Shown: piece after piece, positions 13,233-59,567 of the stretch | How positions within the stretch are numbered: position 1 is the first letter of the stretch | How the letters are laid out: each line of letters begins with the position of its first letter | Assembly (NCBI RefSeq): GCF_035084215.1 | Contig: NC_090337.1 | Span: 42,036,001-42,100,000, forward strand | Direction: 5' to 3' | From: Heptranchias perlo | Lineage: Eukaryota | DNA: 64,000 bases | Made by a program: the position numbers and the translations under genes | The notes under the pieces: model-generated | The model's database searches: none | Told to the model about the DNA's origin: nothing | The model's input: only the letters and a program-made list of their open reading frames with translations

Positions 13233-14914
13233 GGGGATAAATGGATAGGGCCGGTTTTTGGGCCGGAGTAGCACGATCCGCTATTAATCCGTGCCCAATG
13301 GTCCCTGCGCAGGCAGGCCGAGATTTTCGTCAGGCCTGAGGACTGACTTGTGATCTGTGTTGGAAATCAGCGTTGAACAAGGATTCCATACAATTCGCAC
13401 TTTCCAACAGCAGAGTGAGCTCCAATCTCTTAAAGGCAGGATGCCTGTTAGAAATCTCTTAAAGGTAGCTGGTACCTGTTATTTGCTGAATATAACAGCC
13501 TGCTCTCTGCATGGAGTCTGAATGGAGATCGGACATCACACACATAAAAAACAGATGCAGGTCCCATCACTATGTTTACAGACTGATGAGTTATGTTAAA
13601 ACATTGAATAATGGTTGCGCACCACTAAATCCGACATCCTCCAATCTGCATGCAAGACCTCACCAATCTGCCGATCTGAGAGTCCATGCACCAAGGTTCT
13701 CTGCTGATGCACCAGAGGCCTTGGTCCAAGAGGTGGACAGAAGGAGGGACATCCTATATCTGCGGGGGGTGGTGGGGGGGAGCAAGAGGCCCTCCAGACA
13801 TACACCCAAAAGGCAATGGGAGGCAGTAGGGGATGAAGTCAATGCCAGGCGCACAGCATCATGAACATGAATGCAGTACAGGAAGAAGTTCAATGCTTTG
13901 ACATGAGTGGCCAAGGTGAGTGAGGTCAACTGTCAAGTGGCGTCTCCTACCAACTGCACCACCAGCCACATCCGCTCGTCCACGCACTAAACCCCCTAAT
14001 ACCCACCTACCAACAATCTCTTTCCATCAAAACTCAACTCTTCCAATCAGATGCTTCCTCTCACCCTCACACATTACCACTGTTGCAAGCTGCCGAACCA
14101 CAACTCACAGGCAACACGCACTAGCAGCTATTCATACATGACAAGCACATTGCCCAGACACACGTCACGCTTTCTTGCAGGAGAAGGTAGCGCATTTCAG
14201 TAGGCAGCAAGTGGCAGTGGCATTCAGCCCCTCGAGCCTGTTCCGCCATTCAGTGAGATCATGGTGGACCTATGACCTAATTCCATATATCCGCCTTAGC
14301 CCCATGTACCTTAATACCCTTGGTTCACAGAAATCTATCAATCTCAGATTTAGAATTCACAAATGAGCGAGCATCAACTGCCGTTTGCAGAAGAGCGTTC
14401 CAAACTTCTCCCGACCTTTGCATGGAGAAACATTTCCTAACTTCACTCCTGCACGTCCAACCTCTAATGCTAGGCTATGTCCCCGAGTCCTATTATTCAA
14501 GTATAGGAGACCTCCAAAAACAGATACAAATGTCTCGGCAGCCAGAAGCAATAATCCAGCCACTAACCTGTAAATCCTACATGGTCCCTTTAAATAGCAT
14601 TGGTGGGGGGCCCTCCAGGCACTCTAAGACATGTTCAGATGGTTGGGGTTAAGACTGTGCGTTGAGTTGAGCGTTAAGTCCCAAAATGGTGTCTATCACT
14701 TTAAATCAGCGTTGCACACTGATTGAACCCATTTTCTCCCTACTTTCCATGATTGCAGTGTTCGTTATCTGCGCCTGCGCTAGCTCCTATACCAAGATGG
14801 CGTCTGGCGCATGCCACACTGGAAACGTGCGTGTGCATCCAAGATGCCATCTTGGATGTTGAAGAGGCGTGTAGTGCCGAAACAACGGGCGCTACACGGC
14901 CCAATTTAGCTCTC
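13233..14914 (+). mobile_element. Harbinger-derived element carrying a decayed Myb/SANT-like (NAIF1/MSANTD-type) gene
   Basis: APRFSADAPEALVQEVDRRRDILY...KRQWEAVGDEVNAR...QYRKKFN, then donor GTGAGT at 13916 and acceptor ttcttgcAG at 14180 (EKVAHFSRQQ). Paralogous to 49829-51217. Confidence 0.75.
14220..14490 (-). mobile_element. CR1 3' fragment nested in the Myb-bearing element
   Basis: cattcagcccctcgagcctgttccgccattcagtgagatcatgg is the typical CR1 3' end; absent from the paralogous copy at about 50.67 kb. Confidence 0.7.
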
Positions 14915-20971: not shown

Positions 20972-23709
20972 ATATGAGGGTAGGTGACTAAAAAGCTTGG
21001 TCAAAGAGGTAGGTTTTATGAGTTGTAAAGGAGGAGAGAGAGATAAAGAGGTGGAGAGGATTAGGGAGTGAATTCCAGAGCTTAGGGCCTAGGTAGCTGA
21101 AGGCACGTCTGCCAATGGAGGGGCAAAAGAAATTGTGGGTGCACAAGAGGCCAGAACTGGAGGAGTGCAGAGTTCTCAGAGGATTGTAGAGCTGGAGGAG
21201 GTTACAGAGATAGGGAAGGGCAAGGCCATGAGGAGATTTGAAAACAAGGATGAGAATTTTAAAATCAAGGTGTTGCTGGATCAGGGGCCAATGTAGGTCA
21301 GCGAGCACAGGGGTGATGGGTGAACGGAACTTGGTGCAAGTTAGGGTAAGGGCAGCAGAGTTTTGTATGAGCTCAAGTTTATGAAGGGTGGAAGATGGGA
21401 GGCCGACCAGGAGGACATTGGAATAGTCAAGTCTGGAGGTAACAAAAGTATGGATGAGGGCTTCAGCAGCAGATGGGCTGAGGCAGAAGCGGAGACGGGT
21501 GATATTACGGAGGTAGAGGTAGGTGGTTTGGTGATGAAGAGGATATGAGGTCAGAAGCTCATCTCAGAGTCAAATAGGATGCCGAGGTTGTGAACAGTCT
21601 GCTTCAGCCTCAAACGGTGACTAGGGAGGGGGATGGAATCGGATGGATGGATGGGTGGAGAGATGATCCAAACTGTTACAAGGTTTTGAAATTAATTCTC
21701 ATTTAGGTAGCACATGCCTCAAAAAGGTCTTCCATACATTTTGGTTCTAGCCCTACATGTTTCTGAGTGTGTGCTGATGATGGTGAACCACGCTTGCCTC
21801 CAGCATATATCTGAAAATCGTAGGCTCGCTGTTACAATCTTCCGACACGAACTGGTGACGGATGAGGTTCCCTGCTGCCAGCAGATACTCAGAAAGTTAC
21901 TAGCTAAAAACTAAACATTGTGCTTCACGTTGGATCATTAATGGATTGAGAGGTACGTGTCATACCCTAAATTACTACAAGTTATACAATGTTATTGAGA
22001 ATGCATATACAGGAACAGAACATACTGAAAATGTATTTTCTAATTCATTTTTTATGGTAACATCCACATAAAATTAAAGATGAAAGCCTGTATTTTCCTA
22101 CCAGCCCATTCCTTGTATTCCTGACCCTGGGGTCAAGGTCATTATCACATTAAGGGTGGACATTGGGGACTCTTTTTGACATCAGTGAGTTACCTGCCTC
22201 AGGTGGGGAGGGAATGAAATCGCTGTGGCACTGGCCAAAGATTTCCAAAAGACATTTAAAAATCTAAAGTTTTTGAATTTTGCATTTTCAAGTTGCAATT
22301 GATCATTCTAGGCTTATCTGGGTGGACGTATTATCTGGCCAATATTGCTTTTGTCATAAAATCCCAGAGTAGCGTCAGGTACACTTTTTCTTCCCTACTT
22401 GCCCAGGTTATGTCGCAGAGGAAGGTGAGCCAATTTATTTTATTTTTGTACTCAGCTCAGTTGGGCAGAGATTGATGGAAAAATTCAAGGGACAAGGACG
22501 CCCGTTGACTCACCAGCCCGGTCAGGATTTGTTTTCCCCTGCCCCTGCCAAGACCACCGGTGGTCGCTCCTTCCATAACCACCACGTGTAAATGAACGTG
22601 GGGGGCAGGTGGGCCCCAGCTCGTTCGAGAAGCTCCTTCCTATCTGCCCCACTTACTGTCACTTCCCAGGGCCAGCATGTAAAAGGTGGCAATAGGTCCC
22701 AAAACATGGTGATAAAGGCCTTGCAGTCTCACTGTGGAAGGAGAAGGCCTTGATGTGGCCTCCTGTCCCTCCAACTGGTCCCAAACACTTACCTGCTGAA
22801 GGCCCCAGTCTTGGCCAAAACCTTCAGTGAGAGTCTTGATCCAATCTTTAGGGCAGTTCTCTCCATATATTAGGTCACTTGCTGCCTCATCTATTGTTGC
22901 AGCGCCATCCCCACAGCAACACCTCCAGGACTTTCCACCGTTTCACTGGCAAGTTTCCTCTTGGCGGTGAGAATCCTGCCAGGAACCTTCTACGTGTATT
23001 GGTGGGTAGAAAATAAAGCCAGGTGTAACATTGGGAGATTAGTTATCCAACATTAATTCAACCCTGAAATTGCTAATTAAATGACAAGGAAATTCCAATA
23101 GCAAGATGGCAGAGGGCACTGTCAATTGTCAATTTCCGAGCAGTAGACGTCTTGACTTATCTTATCTAACGTTGGTTCATTGGTGCAGCTGAGATTGCCT
23201 ATTTTCTCTTTGTGCATGTCTGGGATATCATCCAATTACATATCAGGAAATGGAAACTCAAACATGTTACGCTTGTAACTGATAACATGAGGAGAGATGG
23301 AATGTTGACAACACTCCACTGGCCCTGACTGACAGGAAATATGTTTTTCATGCCTTTTCTGAGACAATAATAAAAGAAGTTCAATTATAGTCACTCAGTG
23401 AAAGCTGAAGCCCAAGAAATGCTCTTTTGTAACAACAATAAATATAGTATAGGCAGTGGGTAACATTATGTTTATTCCACAAGTAAGGAAGAACTAATAA
23501 ATTATAAACAGAAATAGTGGGAGGTAATAATGTGTAAAAAATGTTTTTTAATTAGTTTCATTGCAGCTTATAAACATAGGCCTTGAATTTATGCCTTAGG
23601 GTAATAGAACATCAATGCTTAACACATTCATCTGAAATGCCTACATGCGCTTTTTTAGCAAAGCATTTAACCCCTTTATTTTAAATGGGTTAACGTCTTC
23701 ACTAAAATA

Positions 23710-24275
23710 ACATTCATCCACCGACCTTCGGGTAAGCGTACTCCAAGGCGGCCTTCGAGACACACGACAACGCAAAATCGTCGAGCAGAAATTGATAGCC
23801 AAGTTCCGCACCCATGAGGACGGCCTCAACCGGGATCTTGGGTTCATGTCACGCTACACGTTACCCCACCAGCGAACAAATGTTATCTGTTTTTAATATA
23901 ATGGGTCATTTGCTGGCTCTCTCTGCCTTCCGGATGTTTCTGCCTCTCTCTGTGTTTTTTTTTCTCTGTTTTTTTTCCCTGTTTGTTTTTTTGTTGAATG
24001 TGTATTCGGGGGTTCTGCAGATGACACCTCTCTGTCTGAACACGGTGATTGCCTTGGCAACGGGCAGTTGCAGGGGCAGTCTGTAAACACCATGTATTAT
24101 TCAATATGTATAAATGCGTAGGCTTCAAGGAGATCCTGAACATTTACCTGAGGAAGGAGAAAATCTCCGAAAGCTTGTGAATTTAAAATAAAATTGCTGG
24201 ACTATAACTTGGTGTTGTAAAATTGTTTACAATTGTCAACCCCAGTCCATCACCGGCATCTCCACATCATGACTA
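23710..24275 (+). repeat. 5' pseudo-LTR of the Penelope-like element
   Basis: Contains the ORF 3' end, a T-rich UTR, TATAAA (24109-24114), the hammerhead, AATAAA (24187-24192) and the first 7 nt of the ORF. No mismatch seen against the 3' copy. Confidence 0.95.
24142..24182 (+). ncRNA. Minimal type I hammerhead ribozyme (copy 1)
   Basis: Stem I ATTTAC/GTGAAT (one G-U pair); core CTGAGGA; extra A; stem II GGAGA-aaa-TCTCC; GAA; palindromic AGCT helix III; predicted cleavage after T24176. Confidence 0.85.
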
Positions 24276-26977
24276 CCATCGACACCACAAACTGCCGGCT
24301 CACAGTGGAAAGGATATCCAAGAAGATCGCGCATTTAGACACAGACATCAAGTTTTTACAGAGCTGCAAGAAAGCAGACAAGATCCCGAAAGGACTCCAG
24401 ATCACGAACCCACTCAAGTCCACATACAACTCGGATTACGCTGAGAGACTCTGCCGCCGTACCTCTCGCACACTCCGCAACCATCTCATACACCAACTCT
24501 ACAGCAGACGCCACAACCTCGAAACCAAGATAGAGTCCATACTCTCAACCTGTACTCAGGACACAGCAGACCAGCTACGTTATACCGCCAAACAGACGAG
24601 GCAACGGAACTACGCTGCCTACATGAAAACCAAGAGCAGGAAGCTTGAGAAACTCGGCATCACCACCAGCAACGACCAAGCTTCCCCTGGTACCACGGTT
24701 GCAACCACAGGGAAGTCTATTGTCAATTTATCCGACCACACCCTTCAACCAGACGAAATCGAAGTTCTCAGCCGAGGGCTCAATTTCTGCCCCACTACCA
24801 AAATGGACCCCACTAGTCTCGCGGCGGACACAGAGGAATTCATCAGGAGAATGAGGCTCCGGGAATTCTACCACAAACCCCAAGATTTCAGCAGCGAACC
24901 CAATGAGACAATCGACGATCCGGAACAGCAGACAGAGGGATCCGCGGTACAGCAACCGAAGAGGAAAGAGTCAAACTGGACTCCTCCGGAGGGTCGCTGC
25001 CCTCAGCTGGACATGTATGCTCAAGCTGTCAGGAAATGCGTCAATGCCAGATTCATCAGCCGCACTCAGAAGACAGTCCAGAATGTCACCCGAGCACAAC
25101 GCAACGCCATCAACGCTCTCAAGACCAACCGCAACATCGTCATCAAACCAGCGGACAAAGGAGGAGCCATAGTCATACAGAACAGAACAGACTATTGCAA
25201 AGAAGCATACCGACAACTGGACAACCAGGAACACTACAGACGGTTACCCGCAGATCCGACCAAAGAACACACCCACCAGCTCAACAAACTGATCAAGACC
25301 TTCGATCCAGACCTTCAAAGCATCCTACGCATTCTCATCCCACGTAATCCCCGCGTGGGAGACTTCTACTGCCTCCCAAAGATACACAAAGCCAACACAC
25401 CCGGACGTCCCATCGTATCAGGCAACGGAACCCTGTGTGAGAACCTCTCTGGATACATCGAGGGCATCCTGAAACCCATCGTACAGGGAACCCCCAGCTT
25501 CTGTCGCGACACTACAGACTTCCTACAAAAACTCAGTACCCACGGACCAGTTGAACCAGGAACACTTCTCACCACGATGGACGTCTCGGCACTATACACC
25601 AGTATCCCCCACGATGACGGCATCGCTGCGACAGCATCAATACTCAACACCAACAACAGCCAATCTCCGGAAGCCATCCTACAACTCATCCGCTTCATCC
25701 TGGATCACAATGTCTTCACCTTCGATAACCAGTTCTTTACCCAAACACACGGAACAGCCATGGGGACCAAATTCGCACCCCAATACGCCAACATTTTCAT
25801 GCACAAGTTCGAGCAGGACTTCTTCACTGCACAAGACCTCCAACCAACACTATACACCAGATACATCGACGACATTTTCTTTCTATGGACCCACGGCAAG
25901 GAATCACTAAAGAGACTACACGATAACATCAACAAGTTCCATCCCACCATCAAGCTCACCATGGACTACTCCTCAGAATCAGTTTCTTTCTTGGACACAC
26001 GAATCTCCATCAAAGACGGGCACCTCAGCACCTCACTCTACCGCAAGCCCACGGACAACCTCACGATGCTCCACTTTTCCAGCTTCCACCCTAACCACGT
26101 CAAAGAGGCCATCCCCTATGGACAGGCCCTGCGAATACACAGGGTCTGCTCAGACGAGGAGGAACGCGATGGACACCTACAGACGCTGAAAGACGCCCTA
26201 GTAAGAACGGGATATGACGCTCGACTCATCGATCGACAGTTCCGACGGGCCACAGCAAAAAATCGCATAGACCTCCTCAGGAGACTAACACGGGACGCAA
26301 CCAACAGAGTACCCTTTGTTGTCCAGTACTTCCCCGGAGCGGAGAAACTACGCCATGTTCTCCGCAGCCTTCAACATGTCATCAATGAGGACAAACACCT
26401 CGCTATGGCCATCCCCACACCTCCACTACTCGCCTTTAAACAGCCACCCAACCTCAAACAGACCATCGTTCGCAGCAAACTACCCAGCTTTCAAGAGAAC
26501 AGCGTCCACGACGCCACACAACCCTGCCACGGTAACCTCTGCAAGACATGCCAGATCATCGACACAGATACCACCATCACACGAGATGACACCACCCACC
26601 AGGTGCATGGTTCATACTCCTGTGACTCGGCCAACGTTGTCTACCTCATACGTTGCAGGAAAGGATGCCCCAGAGCATGGTACATTGGCGAGACCATGCA
26701 GACGCTGCGACAACGGATGAACGGACACCGCGCAACAATCGCCAAACAGGAGGGTTCCCTCCCAGTCGGGGAACACTTCAGCAGTCATGGACATTCATCC
26801 ACCGACCTTCGGGTAAGCGTACTCCAAGGCGGCCTTCGAGACACACGACAACGCAAAATCGTCGAGCAGAAATTGATAGCCAAGTTCCGCACCCATGAGG
26901 ACGGCCTCAACCGGGATCTTGGGTTCATGTCACGCTACACGTTACCCCACCAGCGAACAAATGTTATCTGTTTTTAA
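24269..26977 (+). CDS. Penelope-like reverse transcriptase / GIY-YIG endonuclease polyprotein, 902 aa from the first ATG
   Basis: Uninterrupted ORF. VLSRGLNFCP, IKPADKGGAIV (PLE DKG motif), FYCLPKIHK, GRPIVS, MDVSALYTSI, GTAMGT, RYIDDIF, FLD, LYRKPT. Cys linker PCHGNLCKTC. GIY-YIG: VVYLIRC...WYIGET...LRQRMNGHR...EHF..H...E...GLN. The track ORF starts at a TTG (24233); the first ATG is 24269. Confidence 0.96.
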   Translation: MTTIDTTNCRLTVERISKKIAHLDTDIKFLQSCKKADKIPKGLQITNPLKSTYNSDYAERLCRRTSRTLRNHLIHQLYSRRHNLETKIESILSTCTQDTADQLRYTAKQTRQRNYAAYMKTKSRKLEKLGITTSNDQASPGTTVATTGKSIVNLSDHTLQPDEIEVLSRGLNFCPTTKMDPTSLAADTEEFIRRMRLREFYHKPQDFSSEPNETIDDPEQQTEGSAVQQPKRKESNWTPPEGRCPQLDMYAQAVRKCVNARFISRTQKTVQNVTRAQRNAINALKTNRNIVIKPADKGGAIVIQNRTDYCKEAYRQLDNQEHYRRLPADPTKEHTHQLNKLIKTFDPDLQSILRILIPRNPRVGDFYCLPKIHKANTPGRPIVSGNGTLCENLSGYIEGILKPIVQGTPSFCRDTTDFLQKLSTHGPVEPGTLLTTMDVSALYTSIPHDDGIAATASILNTNNSQSPEAILQLIRFILDHNVFTFDNQFFTQTHGTAMGTKFAPQYANIFMHKFEQDFFTAQDLQPTLYTRYIDDIFFLWTHGKESLKRLHDNINKFHPTIKLTMDYSSESVSFLDTRISIKDGHLSTSLYRKPTDNLTMLHFSSFHPNHVKEAIPYGQALRIHRVCSDEEERDGHLQTLKDALVRTGYDARLIDRQFRRATAKNRIDLLRRLTRDATNRVPFVVQYFPGAEKLRHVLRSLQHVINEDKHLAMAIPTPPLLAFKQPPNLKQTIVRSKLPSFQENSVHDATQPCHGNLCKTCQIIDTDTTITRDDTTHQVHGSYSCDSANVVYLIRCRKGCPRAWYIGETMQTLRQRMNGHRATIAKQEGSLPVGEHFSSHGHSSTDLRVSVLQGGLRDTRQRKIVEQKLIAKFRTHEDGLNRDLGFMSRYTLPHQRTNVICF

Positions 26978-27356
26978 TATAATGGGTCATTTGCTGGCTC
27001 TCTCTGCCTTCCGGATGTTTCTGCCTCTCTCTGTGTTTTTTTTTCTCTGTTTTTTTTCCCTGTTTGTTTTTTTGTTGAATGTGTATTCGGGGGTTCTGCA
27101 GATGACACCTCTCTGTCTGAACACGGTGATTGCCTTGGCAACGGGCAGTTGCAGGGGCAGTCTGTAAACACCATGTATTATTCAATATGTATAAATGCGT
27201 AGGCTTCAAGGAGATCCTGAACATTTACCTGAGGAAGGAGAAAATCTCCGAAAGCTTGTGAATTTAAAATAAAATTGCTGGACTATAACTTGGTGTTGTA
27301 AAATTGTTTACAATTGTCAACCCCAGTCCATCACCGGCATCTCCACATCATGACTA
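26791..27356 (+). repeat. 3' pseudo-LTR of the Penelope-like element
   Basis: Same sequence as 23710-24275; the small ORFs in the track are duplicated exactly at +3081. Confidence 0.95.
27223..27263 (+). ncRNA. Minimal type I hammerhead ribozyme (copy 2)
   Basis: Identical to copy 1 at +3081; predicted cleavage after T27257. Confidence 0.85.
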
Positions 27357-27505
27357 AAATAACAGAGAGGGATTTTAGGCAAATACAATAAGCAGTCATA
27401 TGTTACTTTTCCAGAGAACAATTTCAAGGTCTAAAAGCCACTTTATTACTCATTACATCACTTAAACTCTCTTTCGCCTCTCAGTTCCCAAACAAACTAC
27501 CCATC

Positions 27506-27659
27506 AGGAGTGAAATTGGTCTGAGGCAGCAGCGCAAAACAAGCGACAGAGAAACAGCCGCCCATTTTACACTCCACCCGATTTTCTTTTCCATGTAAAA
27601 CGGACTGCCGACTCGTTAGCTCTCATTTTGCGCTACCTTCCGAGACAACTTTCACCCCC
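27506..27659. mobile_element. Small MITE (Harbinger-like)
   Basis: TIR aggagtgaaattggtct / agacaactttcaccccc; possible 3-bp TSD atc; internal cccattttacac.cc.cc.gattttctttccat shared with 28533-28664. Confidence 0.65.
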
Positions 27660-28532: not shown

Positions 28533-28664
28533 GAGGGTGAAATTGGACTTCGGCAATAGCACAAAATGAGAGATAGCAGATCGGCAGCCCATTTTACACC
28601 CCGCCTGATTTTCTTTCCATTGCACTCTGCACATTGCACTCTGCCGAAGTCCAATCTCACCCCT
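28533..28664. mobile_element. Small MITE, same family as 27506-27659
   Basis: Near-perfect TIR gggtgaaattggacttcggca / tgccgaagtccaatctcaccc. Confidence 0.75.
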
Positions 28665-39277: not shown

Positions 39278-41810
39278 GTTACTGCACAGAAGGAGGCCAT
39301 TCGGCCCATCGTGCCTGTGCTGGCTCTTAAAAAGGACTATCCAATTAGTCCCACTCCCCTGTTCTTTCCCCATATCCCTGTAAATATTTTCCTTTCAAAT
39401 ATTTATCCTATTCCCTTTTGAAAGTTATTATTGAATCTGCTTCCACAACCCTTTCAGGCAGTGCATTCCAGATCATAACAATTCTGCGTAAAAAAACGTT
39501 TCCTCGTGTCGTCGCTGGTTCTTTTCCCAATCACCTTAAATCTGTGTCCTCTGGTTACCGACCCTTCTGCCACTGGAAACAGTTTCTCCTTATTTACTCT
39601 ATCAAAACTGTTCATGATTTTGAACACCTCTAACAAATCTCCTCTTAACCTTCTCTGCTCCAAGGGGAACAATCCCAGCTTCTCCACATAACTGAAGTCC
39701 CTCATCCCTGGTACCATTCTAGTAAGTCTCTCCTGCACCCTATCTAAGGCCTTAACATCCTTCCTAAAGTGTGGTACCCTGAATTGAACACAATACTCTG
39801 AGGCCTAACCAGAGTTTATAAAGGTTTAGCATAACTTCCTTGCTTTTGCACTCTGTGCCTCTATTAATAATGCTCAGGATTCCATATGCTTTTAAACAGC
39901 CTTCTCAACTTGTCCTACCACCTTCAAAGATTTGTGTACATACACACCCCAGATCTCTCTGTTCCTGTACCCTCTTCAAATTTGTACTATTTAGTTTATA
40001 TTGCCTCTCCTCATTCTTCCTACCAAAATGTATCACTTCACACTTCTTGCATTAAATTTCATCTGCCATGTGTCTACCGAAAGCTTGTGATTTTCAAATA
40101 AAATTGTTGGACTATAACTTGGTGTTGTAAGATTGTTTACATGTGTCTACCCGTTTCACCAGTCTGTCTATGTCCTCTTGAAGTCTGTTACAGTCCTCCA
40201 CATTGTTTACTACATTCCCGAGTTTTGTGTCATCTGCAAACTTTGAAATTATTCCCTGTATACCCAAGTCCAGGTCGTTATTACATATCAAAAAGAGAAG
40301 TGGTCCTAATCCTGGAGAACACCGCTGTATACTTCCCTCCAGTCTGAAAAACAAATGTTCACCACTACGCTCTGCTTTCTGTCCCTTAGCCAATTTTGCA
40401 TCCATGCTGCCACTGTCCCTTTATTCCCTTGGGCTTTAATTTTGCTTACAATCTATTATGTGGCACTTTATCAAATGCCTTTTGAAAGTCCATATACACA
40501 ACATCAACAACACTACCCTCATCAACCCTCTCCATTACTTCATCAAAGAATTCAATCAAATTAGTCAAACACAATTTTCTTTTAACAAATCTGTGCTGAC
40601 TTTCATTTATTAGCCCATACTTTTCCAAGTGCCAATTAATTTTGTCCCAGATTATTGTCTCTGAAAGTTTCCCCACCACTGACATTAGGCTACCTGGCCT
40701 GTAATTGTCGGATGTATCCCTCTCCCCTGTTTTGAACAGGGGTGTAACATTTGCAATCCTAAAGTCCTCTGGCACTATCCCCATAACTAAAGAGGATTGG
40801 AAGATTGCGGCCAAAGCCTTCACAATTTCTACCCTTACTTCCCTCAGTAACCTAGGATGCATCCCATTTGGACCAGGCGACTTTTCTATTTTAAGTATTG
40901 CCAACCTTTTAAGTACCTCCTCTTTATCTATTTTTGTCCTATCCAATATCACTCCTTTATTGCTACATTGGCAGCATCCTCTTCTCTAGTGAAGACCAAT
41001 GCGAAGTATTCATTTAGTACCTCAGCCATACCCTCTGGCTCCACAAGAAGATCTCCTATTTTGTCCCTAATCGGCCCCACCATTCCTTTGACTGCCCTTT
41101 TGCTATTTATATGTCCATAAAATACTTTTGGGTTGCCTTTTATATTAGCCGCTAATCTATTCTTATACTCTTTCTTTGCCCCTCTTATTCCCATTTTTAG
41201 ATCTCCTTTGTACTTTCTGTATTCAGCTTGGTTCTCTACTGTATTATGAACCTTGCACTTGTCATAAGCCTCCTTTTTCTATTTCATTTTAAATCTCTAT
41301 ATCTTTAGTCATCCAGGGAGCTCTAGCTTTTAATGTCCTTCCTTTTCCCCTCATGGGAACGTATCTATTCTGTACCCAAACCCTCTCCTCCTTGAAGGCC
41401 TCCCATTTTTCAATTACTGTTTTCCCTACCAATTTTTGCTTCCAATTAACTCATTGAAATTAGTCCTCCTCCAGTTAAGTATTTTTATGCTTGATTGTTC
41501 CTTGTTCTTTTGCATAACTATTCTAAGCCTAATGATAAATTGAAGTCCCCTGGTATCACTACTCTATAGATGTTGCATCTTTCTGTAATTTGCCTGCAGA
41601 TCTGCTCCTCTATCTCCTTCCCACTATTTGGTGGCCTATAGTATACACCCAGTAGCATAATAGATCCTCTATTGTTCCTTAGTTCTAACCAAATAGATTC
41701 CGGGTTTGACCCCTCAACGACATCATCCCTTTCCAGTACTATAATAGTTTCTTTGATCAATACCGCCACCCCCCCACCTTTCTTTCCTTCCCTATCTTTC
41801 CTTAATATTG
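39278..41810 (-). mobile_element. CR1 LINE, long decayed ORF2 (APE to RT)
   Basis: LRKDREGKKGGGVAVLIK, LLGVYYRPP (endonuclease); KSPGPNGMHPRLL, YMDFQKAFDKVPH, FADDTKL (RT); several frameshifts. Confidence 0.9.
40079..40139 (+). mobile_element. 61-bp Penelope pLTR micro-insertion within CR1
   Basis: gaaagcttgtgattttcaaataaaattgttggactataacttggtgttgtaagattgttta matches 24169-24229 with 4 mismatches; flanked by CATGTGTCTACC at 40067-40078 and 40140-40151. Confidence 0.9.
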
Positions 41811-49828: not shown

Positions 49829-51217
49829 AGGTTATATTGGATAACCACCGAAAACGGGCGCTGGGATCATGGTGCATGATTAACCTGCGTCCAGTCGTTG
49901 AAATGCAAGCAACACATAACATTCATGCTGCCTGATGATTTAAATGATTGCTGCATGCAACCAGCGCTACCTGCGCTGGCTGCACACATCAGTAGTGGCC
50001 CGGATATTGGGAGTGACTAGCACCACTTACAGGCAGCCTGCACCTTTTAAAAGGGAGGTGCACTGTGGCTGCAGCAAGTGCTGGAGGTACACTGGGAAGT
50101 AAATCTGTGCTGGAATATAGTGATGAATGGCTGCTGCTGTGAGAGGATCTCGTATGATGCACTAGAGGCCTTGGGTGGAAGAGTGGGACAGAAGGAGGGG
50201 CATCCTATATCTGCAGGGGGGCAAGAGGCCCTCCAGACATATACTCAAGAGGCAGTGGGAGGCAGTAGTGGAAGAGGTCAATGCCAGGGGCATAGCACCA
50301 CGCACATGGATGCAGTACAGGAAGAAGTTCACTGATTTGACAGGAGTGGTCAAGGTGAGTGAGTTCAACTGTCAAGTGGCATATCCTACCAACTGCACCA
50401 TTAGCCGCATCCACAACTCCACGCAATACGCCCCCCCCATCACCCATCTACCAACAAACTCAATCAGTACTCAAGTCTTCAAATCAGATGCTTAATTTCA
50501 CCCTCACACTATACACAGTTGCAAGCCACACACCCACAACTCACAGGTCACACGCATTGGCAGCTATTCAACCATGACAGCCACATCATCCAAACATCTT
50601 GCAGGACACTCACCGGCACACTTCCAGTTTTCTTAGGTGGTGCACAACAGGAAGCAGCAAGTAGCAGTGGCTCCATGGAACATGAACCTGTTGTCCTCTC
50701 TCAGGATGACAGCATTCCTGGTCCCACCGCTGCCACTCCGCCAGTGCCCTTGCTGTTGCCTATCAGTTAGCCAGCCCATTCCCTGTAGAGTATCGAACCA
50801 TTATTCAAGTATAGTAAATCTCCAGAAACAGGTACAAAAGCATCAACAGCCAAAACAAATAACCCAACAACTAACCTGTAACTCCTGCATGATCCCTTCA
50901 AATCGTGCTGGAGGGGGAGGGGCCTCCATGCCATTTAAGTCATGTTCAGCTGTGTAAGGTTAAGACAGTGCACTGAATGGAGCGTGGAGTACCAAAAGAG
51001 CAGCTGTCCCTTTAAATCTGCGTAGCACATTGATTTACGTCATAATCTCCCTACTCTACATGCTGCCGGCGTTCGTTAGGTGCACATGCACAAATGCCTT
51101 TACCAAGATGGCGTCCTGCCCACCTCACTTCAGAAGCATCTCGGAAGCCATTTTCGGGGCTTTGGTGTCCGTGTAGCGCCTACAAAACGGGTGCTACATG
51201 GCCCAGTTTCACCCCCG
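49829..51217 (+). mobile_element. Second Harbinger-derived Myb/SANT-bearing element
   Basis: EEWDRRRGILYLQGGKRPSRHILKRQWEAVVEEVNARGIAPRTWMQYRKKFTDLTGVVK, then GTGAGT donor at 50355; colinear with 13233-14914 up to the 3' terminus gctacatggcccagtttcacccc. Confidence 0.75.
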
Positions 51218-55749: not shown

Positions 55750-56446
55750 GTACAGATGAGAAAAAATATTATTACTCTCAAGATGTCTGCCAAAGAATGG
55801 CTAATCAGTATTTCACTATACCAAGTAGGTGGGCAAATTATGCTCGCCACAATGAGTTTCCTCTCACTCTGTTTAACAATGACAGATGTGGCATGTAGAA
55901 AGTAAATCTTTCCAAGCCTCCCATGTATCCTCATACTACAGCAGGGCACATTTTATTACTGTCACTTCAAACTGTAACTACTGTCTCAATGAGCCCACAA
56001 CACAATCTATCTGCATGATACATCTTCCTTTATACAAACACAAGCTGGATATAGGATTGACACTTGGGTGTCATTCTGTGCACTCTTCACATTTCCCACA
56101 ACGACTTCTTTGCTTGCAGGACAAGGCAGTGCATAAAAGGAGGGAGCAAACCCAAATGGGAGGAGGCCCCGTAATCTTGGAGTGTTGGGTTAATTTGAAC
56201 AGGCCATCCTGGAGCTTGAGAATGGAGGGAGTGGGCCTGGGTGAAGTTGGATGCCATCCCAAAGCTCAGGGCTGGTACCATCTTTTTTCTCTTATTCTTC
56301 CTCACTTACACCAACATGCCACACACATGATGCATGTTCATTTACAGACATTTGAGGTTCATGTAGAGAAGCAGAAGAGGAACATTTGTTAGAATGCTGA
56401 CTGCAAGGCACCTGAAACTATTAACCTTTTCTCATTTGCTTCCATA

Positions 56447-56700
56447 TCCTCAGAGGGTGGTGAACCTGTGGAATTCCCTACCACAGAAGGCAGTGGAGGC
56501 CAAGTCATTAAATATATTCAAGAAGGAGAGAGATATATTTCTTAATGCTAAACGGATCAAGGGATATGGGGAAAAAGCGGGAACAGGGTACTCAGTTAGA
56601 CGATCAGCCATGATCATTTTGAATGGTGAAGCAAGCCCGAAGGGCCGAATGGCCTACTCTTGCTCCTATTTTCTATGTTTCTATTTTCTATGTTTCTATC
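56447..56700 (+). mobile_element. CR1 3' fragment, duplicated in inverted form at about 57869-58122
   Basis: QRVVNLWNSLPQKAVEAKSLNIFKKE; ttctatgt tail; tatcct duplicated at both ends. Confidence 0.85.
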
Positions 56701-56959
56701 CTTCGGCTGTTTGACATTGCATTTATTGTGTCTGCAAATGAACACGCATCATGTGTGTGGCATGATGGTGTACTCAAATATATGTTTATGTGAATGAGTA
56801 AGGGGAGAAAGATCAACAGGAAAAAGATGGTAGTGTGTGTGCTTACAATACAGCCCTCCAGAGTGGAAACAAGTAAGGGGCATTCTGGTAAGGTTGTTTT
56901 GTAAGACTCCCTTGATCTGAATTGCTGCTTCTAGATGCTTATAGTGTGTTTGACGATGT

Positions 56960-57390
56960 TTCTAATGTGCAACCTCAGAGCTGAGTTCAGTCCTCGGCTG
57001 AGCTTCAAACTCTACCTCCTCTCCATATCTAAGACTGCTTATTTCCACCTCCACAACACTGTTTGTCTCTGCCTTTATTTCAGCTGAGACAAATGCTGAA
57101 ACCCTTGCCCATGCTCTCGTCAGCTCCAGACTCGATTACTGCAATGTTCCCCTTGCTGGCCTTCCACCATCCACAATTCACAAATTCCAACTTATCCTGT
57201 TCCATACCCATCACTACATCCTTGTGAAACTATACTAGCTGACTGTCCCACAGAATATCCAATTTAAAATCCTCTTTCACATCTTCAAATCCCTCCATGG
57301 CCTGGATCCTCCTTACTTCTGCAATTGACTCATGTACACTTCAGACTCTGGTCTCACATGCATCCCCTCTTCTTTGGCCCCACCAATACC
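56960..57390 (+). mobile_element. Old L2 LINE remnant
   Basis: [23 protein letters not shown] and FKILFHIFKSLHGL-like motifs. Confidence 0.7.
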
Positions 57391-59567
57391 AGTACCAATT
57401 CATCAATGTGTTGGTCAGTACAAGTCAATGCCTACTTTCCAGGCAGTAATCATGCCTCCATTTTAAGACAATTCTGTGTGTTGAACGAGAAGGATGGCTT
57501 CTAGGAAACCAAGGCCACTTTCTTCAGCTCTGGCTCATGATACCATTCAGACAGCCACAAACAGCAGCAACTAGATACAGCTAGGTCCATCCAACAACAA
57601 CTTGCACTTATATAGTGTCATAACAATCAAAATGTCTCATGGTGGTTGACACAGAAATATCTAGAAGAATGAATGCTGAGCCATGGAGGGAGGTGACTGA
57701 AATCTACATCAAAAATATGGGTTTTGAGAAGGTTTTTAAGGGAGAATAGAGAAGTAGGGATTACCAGAGAGTACCATTTGTTAGAATGCTGACTGAACAC
57801 GCATCATGCCACACACATGATGCGTGTTCATTTGCAGACACAATAAATGCAATGTCAAACAGCCGAAGGATAGAAACATAGAAAATAGAAACATAGAAAA
57901 TAGGAGCAAGAGTAGGCCATTCGGCCCTTCGGGCTTGCTTCACCATTCAAAATGATCATGGCTGATCGTCTAACTGAGTACCCTGTTCCCGCTTTTTCCC
58001 CATATCCCTTGATCCGTTTAGCATTAAGAAATATATCTCTCTCCTTCTTGAATATATTTAATGACTTGGCCTCCACTGCCTTCTGTGGTAGGGAATTCCA
58101 CAGGTTCACCACCCTCTGAGGATATGGAAGCAAATGAGAAAAGGTTAATAGTTTCAGGTGCCTTGCAGTCAGCATTCTAACAAATGGTACTCTCTGGTAA
58201 TCCCTACTTCTCTATTCTCCCTTAAAAACCTTCTCAAAACCCATATTTTTGATGTAGATTTCAGTCACCTCCCTCCATGGCTCAGCATTCATTCTTCTAG
58301 ATATTTCTGTGTCAACCACCATGAGACATTTTGATTGTTATGACACTATATAAGTGCAAGTTGTTGTTGGATGGACCTAGCTGTATCTAGTTGCTGCTGT
58401 TTGTGGCTGTCTGAATGGTATCATGAGCCAGAGCTGAAGAAAGTGGCCTTGGTTTCCTAGAAGCCATCCTTCTCGTTCAACACACAGAATTGTCTTAAAA
58501 TGGAGGCATGATTACTGCCTGGAAAGTAGGCATTGACTTGTACTGACCAACACATTGATGAAGTGGCAGCCAGTGGATCACATACAATATATGATGGGTG
58601 AAGATGCAGCGAGATCAATCTCTGCCCAATTTCCCAGCCCCAGATTACCCATTCCACTCACATGACACCAGCATGGCAACAGGAAAAATCCTGTGTTAAC
58701 AGGAGTAGATATGACATTGCTAATTCATGTGGTGTGTAGGTAATTGTCTTAGTGGTGATTTAAAAGGTTATATTCTGCAATAATAATTTAATGAAGCATT
58801 CTACACATGAGAGAGTTTAATAGAAAGGTACTATTTGCAGCTACCACTTCAAAAGATCCTTAGGGTGGGAATGGACTAACAGGAGTAGCAGGTACATTAG
58901 GCAATAGCAAGAAAACATCACACACATTAAATTACTGATTAACCCTCAAAATAGAAATGTCCACAAAAGAACGTAACTAAAGAAAACCTCATGAGACTCA
59001 CCACAAGAGGAAGATGTGGGAAGTAATTGAACCAAAAATTGCTTTAGAGAGTAATTCAAACACTCTAAAGTCTTTGGCTCCCAAGGAACCTGAGGTTCAT
59101 TCAGCAATCCATTCCAGAAAGGCAAAAGTGCAACACCTTTCGTGATGAGGCTTGGATATGAGTGGTGACTTGGAATGAGGAAAGAAATTGACCTTTCTGT
59201 GCAAGAGACAACAATTCAGAGAATAAGCACAGGTGTCAGAAGAGTCATAGTACAAAAACGTCTGAATTTTAGCACGATGGATTGATACAGAAGTCAAATA
59301 ATAAAACTATTAGGGAATATCAGTAGCCAGACAATGGAAGTTAGTATCAAGCAATAGTTATGTGGCTGACATTCCTCTGATTGAAAATACGCAGGCAAAG
59401 GCATATTTTTCAACATTTAAACAGAACGTTAATGAAATAGTAAGTGTGTGTATGGCATTCCTAAATGAAAGTTGAGAGAAATTAGATTTTGTTTGGGGCA
59501 ACTGAATAGTATCAGCCAATCACATCACACCTACATGAAGACCCTTTGATGTTTCTCAAGCAACTAG

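What the first reader, a model, noticed from the sequence alone, without database searches (positions are those of the whole stretch)
23701..27364. Intact, apparently very recent Neptune-type Penelope-like retroelement
Seen: a 902-aa uninterrupted RT plus GIY-YIG ORF with all expected motifs, two 566-bp pseudo-LTRs with no mismatch I could find (even across homopolymer runs), and a clean 12-bp TSD. Every other transposon in the window is truncated or decayed. Known: PLEs have a DKG motif, and a Cys-rich linker before the GIY-YIG domain is typical of the Neptune group. Inference: this is a possibly active family and may be polymorphic at this locus.
Basis: partly seen in the sequence, partly recalled or inferred. 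Interest (0 to 1): 0.75.

Follow-up and report, generated by a model that had tools for sequence, protein, structure and literature searches.

The report
Young, intact shark Penelope-like jumping gene
This is a complete, young copy of a known kind of jumping gene in a shark; its newest lineage seems to be transcribed, and this copy seems to be missing from another chromosome of the same species, so the family was probably still moving recently.

Summary
Confirmed: a 902-aa RT + GIY-YIG ORF (24269-26977), two identical 566-bp pseudo-LTRs and a 12-mer at both borders. Seven of the 566 bp overlap the 12-mer, so the TSD is 5-12 bp.

It is a Penelope-like element of Neptune type: 23 residues lie between the linker CxxC and the next Cys (Neptune 23-27, Nematis 7). 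No tree with labelled references was built. The family follows shark phylogeny, and this copy sits at the tip of a young subfamily (Heptranchias proteins up to 99.7% identical).

Identical pLTRs prove little in sharks (up to about 3.8 million generations). Better signs of youth:
- intact CpGs;
- an RNA-like run carrying this subfamily's letters;
- a host DNA contig that follows the left flank to the last TSD base and then leaves the element, as an empty allele would. Its tail was not shown.

Likely mechanism: target-primed reverse transcription starting at its own start codon, from a longer-than-unit template. The scan noted the same arrangement before in another shark genome. Verdict: new member of a known kind, probably recently active and dimorphic.

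The parts
23701..23712 (+). Left copy of the target-site duplication; its last 3 bases (ACA) also match the element
   Evidence: a host contig lies on the flank exactly to 23712 (table 8, record 2)
23710..24275 (+). 5' pseudo-LTR: a 5'-truncated upstream unit holding the last 61 codons of the ORF, the 3' UTR and the leader up to the ATG (unambiguous part 23713-24271)
24109..24114 (+). TATA-like hexamer about 30 nt upstream of the hammerhead; possible promoter (consensus match only)
   Evidence: function inferred
24142..24182 (+). Minimal type I hammerhead: helix I 24142-47 with 24177-82, core CUGAGGA 24148-54, extra A, helix II GGAGA/UCUCC, GAAA, palindromic AGCU; predicted cut after 24176
   Evidence: features as in PMC4209133
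24187..24192 (+). AATAAA, possible poly(A) signal (its copy at 27268 would be the one used)
   Evidence: consensus match only
24269..26977 (+). Single 902-aa ORF: N-terminal helical domain, telomerase-like RT, thumb, Cys linker, GIY-YIG endonuclease
25154..25873 (+). RT core from DKG (aa 296) to YIDD (aa 532-535); catalytic aspartates present
   Evidence: (RVT_1 E 3.3e-10)
26525..26623 (+). Cys linker C753-x4-C758-x2-C761-x23-C785 (Neptune spacing)
   Evidence: against Fig. S2/S7 rows of PMC8557442
26639..26911 (+). GIY-YIG endonuclease (VYLI..YIG, C796, C800, R816, H820, H836, H842, E866, N881) with the CCHH finger
   Evidence: the Pfam GIY-YIG model was not hit
26791..27356 (+). 3' pseudo-LTR, ending at the ATG of the next unit (27350-27352) plus 4 bases shared with the target
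27223..27263 (+). Second minimal hammerhead, 3081 nt from the first
27353..27364 (+). Right copy of the target-site duplication; its first 4 bases (ACTA) also match ORF bases +4 to +7

Best explanation
An intact, autonomous, endonuclease-bearing Penelope-like retroelement of Neptune type, from the youngest subfamily of a family inherited vertically in sharks, inserted recently enough that an empty allele still exists in the species. SHOWN: the anatomy, the catalytic residues, the hammerheads, near-identical siblings, 5'-truncated siblings whose 3' ends cluster at the ATG, and contigs of this subfamily in an RNA-like run. INFERRED (by analogy with PAc and Penelope): RNA made from the 5' pLTR is translated from ATG 24269; the GIY-YIG domain nicks AT-rich DNA; the freed 3' end primes reverse transcription inside the RNA at the start codon, here possibly helped by 4-nt pairing; RT copies one whole 3081-nt unit plus 559 nt of the unit before it and then stops, which creates the two pLTRs; a staggered second nick gives the 5-12 bp duplication. 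The longer-than-unit template is either a read-through RNA from a tandem parent (about 55%) or a hammerhead-cut monomer that is circularised or re-entered by template jumps (about 45%). The sequence cannot separate these.
For: Anatomy. Fold: pLDDT 87.5, and the top 10 PDB matches are all telomerase RTs. Siblings: 22 H. perlo RefSeq proteins are 92.9-99.7% identical (P0122 99.4% over 521 aa, P0123 99.7% over 303 aa). Tree: the window copy groups with P0122 and P0134 (99/93) inside the H. perlo set (96/97); the two carcharhiniform and the two orectolobiform species each group together. Host DNA run X1: 30,878 of 80,376 laid contigs are at least 99% alike; summed depth rises from 0.54 M in the 5' ORF to 3.6 M in the 3' ORF and 5.6 M in the pLTR, against 45-69 in most flank bins. 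Run X5 (RNA by the tool's guess): depth 0 in all 10 flank-only bins; five 5'-ORF contigs with 0 differences, one crossing the pLTR/ORF junction; at 24580, 24914 and 25009 X1 shows the other letter in 54-61% of depth and X5 in none; loose ends behind 24271 (19 contigs) and 24273 (3). CpG o/e is 0.82 in the ORF against a window median of 0.29. Of 33 listed coding variants 18 are synonymous, against an expected share of 0.23-0.28 (P 7e-5 to 1e-3).
Against: The 223 run-on letters were not displayed, so the empty allele rests on where one contig stops, not on a read sequence. No listed contig shows the filled junction (86,509 pieces were not shown). Only one host sample was available. X5 is RNA by guess, and contigs show no strand or level. 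49,498 of 80,376 laid contigs are under 99% alike, so most of the family is older. Rfam found no hammerhead and folding z-scores were weak (-0.15 to -1.45). Pfam GIY-YIG was not hit. The target is not a (TA)n microsatellite. PAc starts reverse transcription without homology to the target, and its hammerhead is dispensable in vitro.
Confidence: 0.8

Rival explanations
1. The element is intact but old and fixed. It looks young only because sharks mutate slowly, and the contig that skips it comes from a duplicated paralogous region or is an assembly shortcut.
For: Zero differences in 559-566 bp allow 0.53% divergence, about 3.8 million generations at 7e-10 per site per generation (rate from another shark). 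The contig's tail was not seen. Most family contigs are under 99% alike.
Against: The contig stops at exactly the base that an empty site predicts and differs from the flank at only 1 of 1412 bases. A 223-base run into the right flank would end at 27587, inside a repeat at 27510-27657 where a contig would break. CpGs are undecayed. RNA-like contigs carry the young letters.
Confidence: 0.12
2. The insertion is private to the assembled tissue or to the assembly (somatic event or mis-join) and is not a germline allele.
For: The only flank-reaching contig listed lacks the element, and its depth (44.7) equals that of the neighbouring flank contig (44.9). No filled junction was listed.
Against: A mis-join would not make a 12-bp duplication with microhomology at both ends. 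An assembler rarely picks a rare somatic allele. Short junction contigs leading into a very high-copy repeat are commonly pruned (own knowledge), and the listing was cut.
Confidence: 0.04
3. It is an EN+ PLE of a clade other than Neptune (Nematis, or an unnamed lineage within the paraphyletic Neptune grade).
For: The Cys linker is shared with Nematis, and Neptune was paraphyletic and weakly supported in the RT tree of PMC8557442. No labelled tree was built here.
Against: Spacing is 23 here, 23-27 in five Neptune rows and 7 in three Nematis rows. GTAMGTKFAPQYAN, KPTDN and PPLLAFK resemble the Neptune rows by eye, not the Nematis rows.
Confidence: 0.08
4. The young subfamily has recently moved horizontally between the host and two other organisms (B and C).
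For: DNA runs X9 and X10 hold most of the ORF at about 99.2-100% identity (for example 1 difference in 764, 8 in 1115, 0 in 338, 5 in 1072) and no flank.
Against: Only 36 and 6 contigs were laid, at depth 6-60 in the ORF, with the same 5'-to-3' rise as the host run and no clear host junction among the listed loose ends. That is what trace carry-over of a very high-copy repeat gives. All named proteins above 63% identity are from sharks, and the tree follows shark orders.
Confidence: 0.08

Closest known systems
Neptune clade of EN+ Penelope-like elements (Neptune1_Ap, Neptune1_Nv, Neptune-1_Ac, DrerioNep1; PMC8557442)
   Same: Single ORF with RT and C-terminal GIY-YIG; DKG; CX2-5CxxC linker with 23 residues to the next Cys; CCHH finger; pLTRs; hammerhead.
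   Different: A shark lineage (turtle relatives only about 40-44% identical). The target is AT-rich unique DNA, not (TA)n. The young subfamily has an 11-aa longer C terminus, because an older stop at codon 892 is read through.
PAc, Poseidon element of Anolis carolinensis (PMC11167929), the PLE reconstituted in vitro
   Same: pLTR-ORF-pLTR partial tandem; hammerhead near the start codon; AT-rich target; 3' ends of copies at a fixed site inside a longer RNA.
   Different: PAc is of the Penelope/Poseidon clade, which lacks the Cys linker. Its hammerhead overlaps the ATG (cut at +26) and RT starts near +111-118 without target homology. Here the predicted cut is 92 nt upstream of the ATG, copies end at the ATG, and this copy has a 4-nt match to the target.
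Minimal hammerheads in metazoan PLE pLTRs (PMC4209133)
   Same: Conserved core, extra base between positions 9 and 10.1, G10.1-C11.1 pair, palindromic 15.1-16.1 (AGCU), tandem pair about 3 kb apart.
   Different: Nothing material; cleavage was not tested.
Active Neptune subfamilies of Fundulus killifish (PMC12602865)
   Same: A Neptune element reported as active and accumulating in a vertebrate.
   Different: Teleost host, two ORFs reported, evidence from copy number in hybrids rather than from an empty allele.

Membership tests
EN+ Penelope-like elements | Single ORF with RT and C-terminal GIY-YIG endonuclease | tested here: met
   Pfam hit the RT only. The endonuclease was read from motifs against the published alignment and from homologs carrying PF01541.
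EN+ Penelope-like elements | RT most similar to telomerase RT; DKG motif | tested here: met
   Top 10 Foldseek matches are TERTs; D296 K297 G298 invariant in 28 of 28 rows.
EN+ Penelope-like elements | CCHH finger with two Cys inside the GIY-YIG core; catalytic R, H, E, N | tested here: met
   C796, C800, R816, H820, H836, H842, E866, N881 each conserved in at least 90% of 28 rows.
EN+ Penelope-like elements | Pseudo-LTRs formed by a partial tandem | tested here: met
   The 5' repeat is the 3' end of the unit, including the last 61 codons.
EN+ Penelope-like elements | Hammerhead motif in the pLTR | tested here: met
   My descriptor hits only 24148 and 27229 in 64 kb, both strands, and 0 of 5000 pLTR shuffles (written after seeing the motif). 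Rfam had no hit.
EN+ Penelope-like elements | Nicking, target-primed reverse transcription and self-cleavage activity | not testable with these tools
   Needs biochemistry.
Neptune | CX2-5CxxC linker between RT and endonuclease | tested here: met
   C753-x4-C758-x2-C761; shared with Nematis and Naiad.
Neptune | Long linker (not the reduced Nematis form) | tested here: met
   23 residues from CxxC to the next Cys; 23-27 in 5 Neptune rows and 7 in 3 Nematis rows, counted by eye.
Neptune | RT groups with labelled Neptune families | not tested
   No labelled reference proteins were held; the tree has none. Neptune is itself paraphyletic.
Neptune | Bias for microsatellite targets (hypothesised in the literature, not defining) | tested here: not met
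   No (TA)4+ within about 200 bp of the site; the flanks are 67-68% AT. One site only.
Nematis | Reduced linker (7 residues after CxxC) | tested here: not met
   23 residues.
Penelope/Poseidon | No Cys linker | tested here: not met
   Linker present.
Naiad/Chlamys | N-terminal endonuclease, CxC motif, DKA, no canonical hammerhead | tested here: not met
   C-terminal endonuclease, DKG, hammerhead present.
Hydra | DKT, no CCHH, CxCX5C linker | tested here: not met
   DKG, CCHH and CX4CxxC present.

The most novel reading that the evidence does not exclude
This Neptune subfamily is transposing today in the shark germline through a hammerhead-cut circular RNA. Reverse transcription starts at the element's own start codon, primed by short target-RNA pairing (unlike the homology-free start of PAc), and runs more than once round the circle to rebuild the promoter. 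A 1.2-unit copy like this one holds the ORF's 5' region only once, so a circle is the simplest way for it to make full-length daughters. That would make the 2014 circular-template proposal directly testable with a natural, intact, dimorphic vertebrate copy.
Probability: 0.2. Interest if true: 0.65.

Novelty: new member of a known kind. Interest (0 to 1): 0.38.

Why it matters
Only a Poseidon-type PLE has been reconstituted as a full protein (PMC11167929), and no PLE structure turned up in the PDB searches. An intact, apparently expressed Neptune ORF with a natural target site is a ready substrate for asking what the Cys linker does, where reverse transcription starts and how pseudo-LTRs arise. 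If insertions still segregate, retrotransposition adds variation in a lineage with one of the lowest measured point-mutation rates (PMC10587355), and the insertions are usable population markers. The family also contaminates gene models: 22 H. perlo RefSeq proteins examined are pieces of it, two fused to host gene names. My searches found no paper on an active shark PLE (listings only, open-access library). The kind itself is well known.

Tried and rejected
- No genome is held for the window, so the genome-wide copy count and divergence landscape were not possible.
- Rfam at E up to 10: no hammerhead family; one chance snoRNA match, E 1.9.
- Folding z-scores of the hammerhead region: not significant.
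- PDB by sequence: one weak RT match, E 0.86.
- The exact ORF is not in the protein collection.
- No listed run is on record as RNA; X5-X8 are RNA by guess only.
- Summed contig depth is not a copy number; I use it only for the 5'-3' gradient.
- pLTR identity as a clock: rejected as too weak.
- L892* among the read variants: rejected as an ORF break. It is the older C terminus; 8 of 22 H. perlo proteins end there and 5 of 22 have the longer end.
- Host exon near the site: none among 122 long frames; short exons would be missed.
- Sequence look-up in earlier findings: nothing.
- Supplements of the bioRxiv retrozyme paper were not seen and may list a chondrichthyan Neptune family.
Full report
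OBSERVATION. The window holds an uninterrupted 902-aa ORF at 24269-26977 between two copies of a 566-bp sequence, 23710-24275 and 26791-27356, identical base for base and 3081 bp apart. A 12-mer occurs only at 23701-23712 and 27353-27364 (chance about 2e-7 at a given place). The repeat overlaps the 12-mer by 3 bases on the left and 4 on the right, so the duplication is 5-12 bp with microhomology at both junctions. The 5' repeat is the 3' end of the unit: it carries the last 61 codons, the 3' UTR and the leader, and it ends at the ATG. The insert is thus 1.18 units of a head-to-tail array. Other coding elements in the window are fragments: 7 of 122 long frames hit RVT_1, the longest 377 aa.

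PROTEIN. Pfam hits only RVT_1 (E 3.3e-10). In an alignment with 27 homologs DKG and the RT aspartates are invariant, and the linker cysteines, the CCHH residues and the catalytic R, H, E and N of the endonuclease are at least 90% conserved. The model has mean pLDDT 87.5, and its ten best PDB matches are telomerase RTs, the expected sister group of PLEs (PMC8557442, Introduction read).

CLADE. The Cys linker is common to Neptune, Nematis and Naiad (passages), so it does not decide alone. In that paper's supplementary alignments (rows of Figs S1, S2 and S7) I count 23-27 residues from CxxC to the next Cys in five Neptune rows and 7 in three Nematis rows; here it is 23. RT and thumb motifs also resemble the Neptune rows by eye. 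Poseidon, Hydra and Naiad/Chlamys fail on stated features. No tree with labelled references was built, and Neptune was paraphyletic in that paper, so the label is by motif (about 90%).

HAMMERHEAD. Each pLTR holds a minimal type I hammerhead (24142-24182 and 27223-27263) with the features listed in PMC4209133 (parts 1-2 of 4 read): the extra base before helix II, the G10.1-C11.1 pair and a palindromic AGCU in place of helix III. My descriptor finds only these two in 64 kb and none in 5000 shuffles (written after seeing the motif). One listed variant, 24146 A>G, turns an A-U pair of helix I into G-U. Against: Rfam gave no hit and folding z-scores were weak.

FAMILY HISTORY. Named relatives are sharks: Heptranchias perlo 91-99.7%, Scyliorhinus 78-86%, Mustelus 75-84%, Chiloscyllium and Hemiscyllium 56-84%; turtles follow at about 40-44%. 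The host is inferred to be H. perlo or a very close relative. A tree of 48 rows (1 of 48 candidate proteins dropped for short overlap) keeps the H. perlo, Scyliorhinus and Mustelus sets each together, joins the two carcharhiniforms and the two orectolobiforms, and places the window copy at the tip of a nested H. perlo series with P0122 and P0134. This fits vertical descent with successive subfamilies. Of 40 listed read variants (62 more not shown), 33 are coding: 18 synonymous, 14 non-synonymous and 1 stop. The expected synonymous share is 0.23-0.28 (P 7e-5 to 1e-3), so the master lineage was under purifying selection. The stop, at codon 892, is the older C terminus: 8 of 22 H. perlo proteins end there and 5 of 22 have the longer end. 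No indel reaching 10% was listed in the ORF.

AGE. Identical pLTRs bound divergence to 0.53%, about 3.8 million generations at 7e-10 (rate from PMC10587355, passages; another species). Stronger signs are these. (a) CpG o/e is 0.82 in the ORF against a window median of 0.29. (b) Siblings reach 99.4-99.7% amino-acid identity, and 30,878 of 80,376 host contigs are at least 99% alike. An empty allele predicts exactly that stop, and 223 bases of right flank would end at 27587, within a local repeat. The letters were not displayed, the filled junction was not among the listed pieces, and X1 may be the assembled individual, so this is one strong hint and not a proof.

EXPRESSION. Run X5, of the same sample as X1 and RNA by the tool's guess, has no depth in 10 of 10 flank-only bins, a far steeper 3' rise than the DNA run, and five 5'-ORF contigs identical to the window, one across the pLTR/ORF junction. 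At three sites where 54-61% of DNA depth shows the other letter, X5 shows only the window's letter. DNA carry-over would mirror the DNA mix, so the young subfamily is probably transcribed. Strand, level and tissue are unknown, and the source locus cannot be assigned.

MECHANISM. Shown: depth rises about sevenfold along the ORF and tenfold into the pLTR, and in X5 other copies leave the element behind 24271 (19 contigs) and 24273 (3). Copies therefore share a 3' end at the ATG and are 5'-truncated, the signature of target-primed reverse transcription. Inferred: the start lies inside a longer RNA, as shown for PAc (PMC11167929, parts 1-2 of 4 read). Here the nicked strand would end in four bases that pair with ORF bases +4 to +7; one site cannot tell priming from chance. 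A TATA-like box at 24109, the hammerhead, AATAAA at 24187 and the first downstream ATG at 24269 lie in a plausible order (consensus only). The 5' repeat reaches 464 nt upstream of the predicted cut, so the template was longer than one unit: a read-through RNA of a tandem parent, or a cut monomer used as a circle or by template jumps, as proposed in PMC4209133. PAc used unprocessed RNA in vitro, which tips me slightly to the first.

OTHER ORGANISMS. DNA runs X9 and X10 (organisms B and C) hold most of the ORF at about 99.2-100% identity but no flank, in 36 and 6 contigs at low depth, with the host's 5'-3' gradient. Trace carry-over of a high-copy repeat is more likely than horizontal transfer; it is unresolved.

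LITERATURE AND VERDICT. Neptune and Poseidon PLEs occur in five vertebrate classes, and hammerhead repeats were found in the one chondrichthyan sampled (bioRxiv 10.64898/2026.07.22.740005, part 1 of 5 and passages; supplements not seen). Active Neptune subfamilies are reported in killifish (PMC12602865, passages). PMC9004415 (passages) added nothing. Five searches gave no paper on an active shark PLE (listings only). The finding is real and well read: a new, probably recently active and dimorphic member of a known kind. Interest 0.38.

Noticed in passing
window 56376-58566: Two adjacent near-perfect inverted duplications (57395-57795 with 58166-58566, 99.8%; 56376-56771 with 57797-58193, 99.2%) of ordinary sequence including a LINE 3' end. 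A very recent template-switch rearrangement or an assembly artefact.
   Followed up: partly
window 40077-40152: 76-bp remnant of the same pLTR (91% identical) that starts inside the hammerhead; an older insertion of the family.
   Followed up: partly
runs X9 and X10 on window 23718-26787: Organisms B and C hold the element at about 99% identity, at low depth and without flanks: carry-over or horizontal transfer.
   Followed up: partly
window 50166-50492 (+), paired with 13777-14811: Myb/SANT-like frame (Myb_DNA-bind_5, E 1.2e-5) in a repeat present twice; probably decayed Harbinger-type DNA transposons (family label recalled).
   Followed up: no
proteins P0016 and P0128: H. perlo RefSeq models named epn2 and divergent protein kinase domain 2Ab contain long stretches of this ORF (96% identical): exonised or mis-annotated copies.
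   Followed up: no
window 26943 (and 23862): The young subfamily reads through the older stop at codon 892 and gains 11 residues; 66% of host DNA depth has the stop.
   Followed up: yes
proteins P0002, P0005, P0166, P0174: Unnamed ENA/JGI proteins, 53-64% identical, branch just outside the shark set; two are full-length on contigs of about one unit. Hosts unknown.
   Followed up: no
window 27510-27657 and 28535-28620: Short inverted repeat family in the right flank, about 76% alike, MITE- or SINE-like.
   Followed up: no
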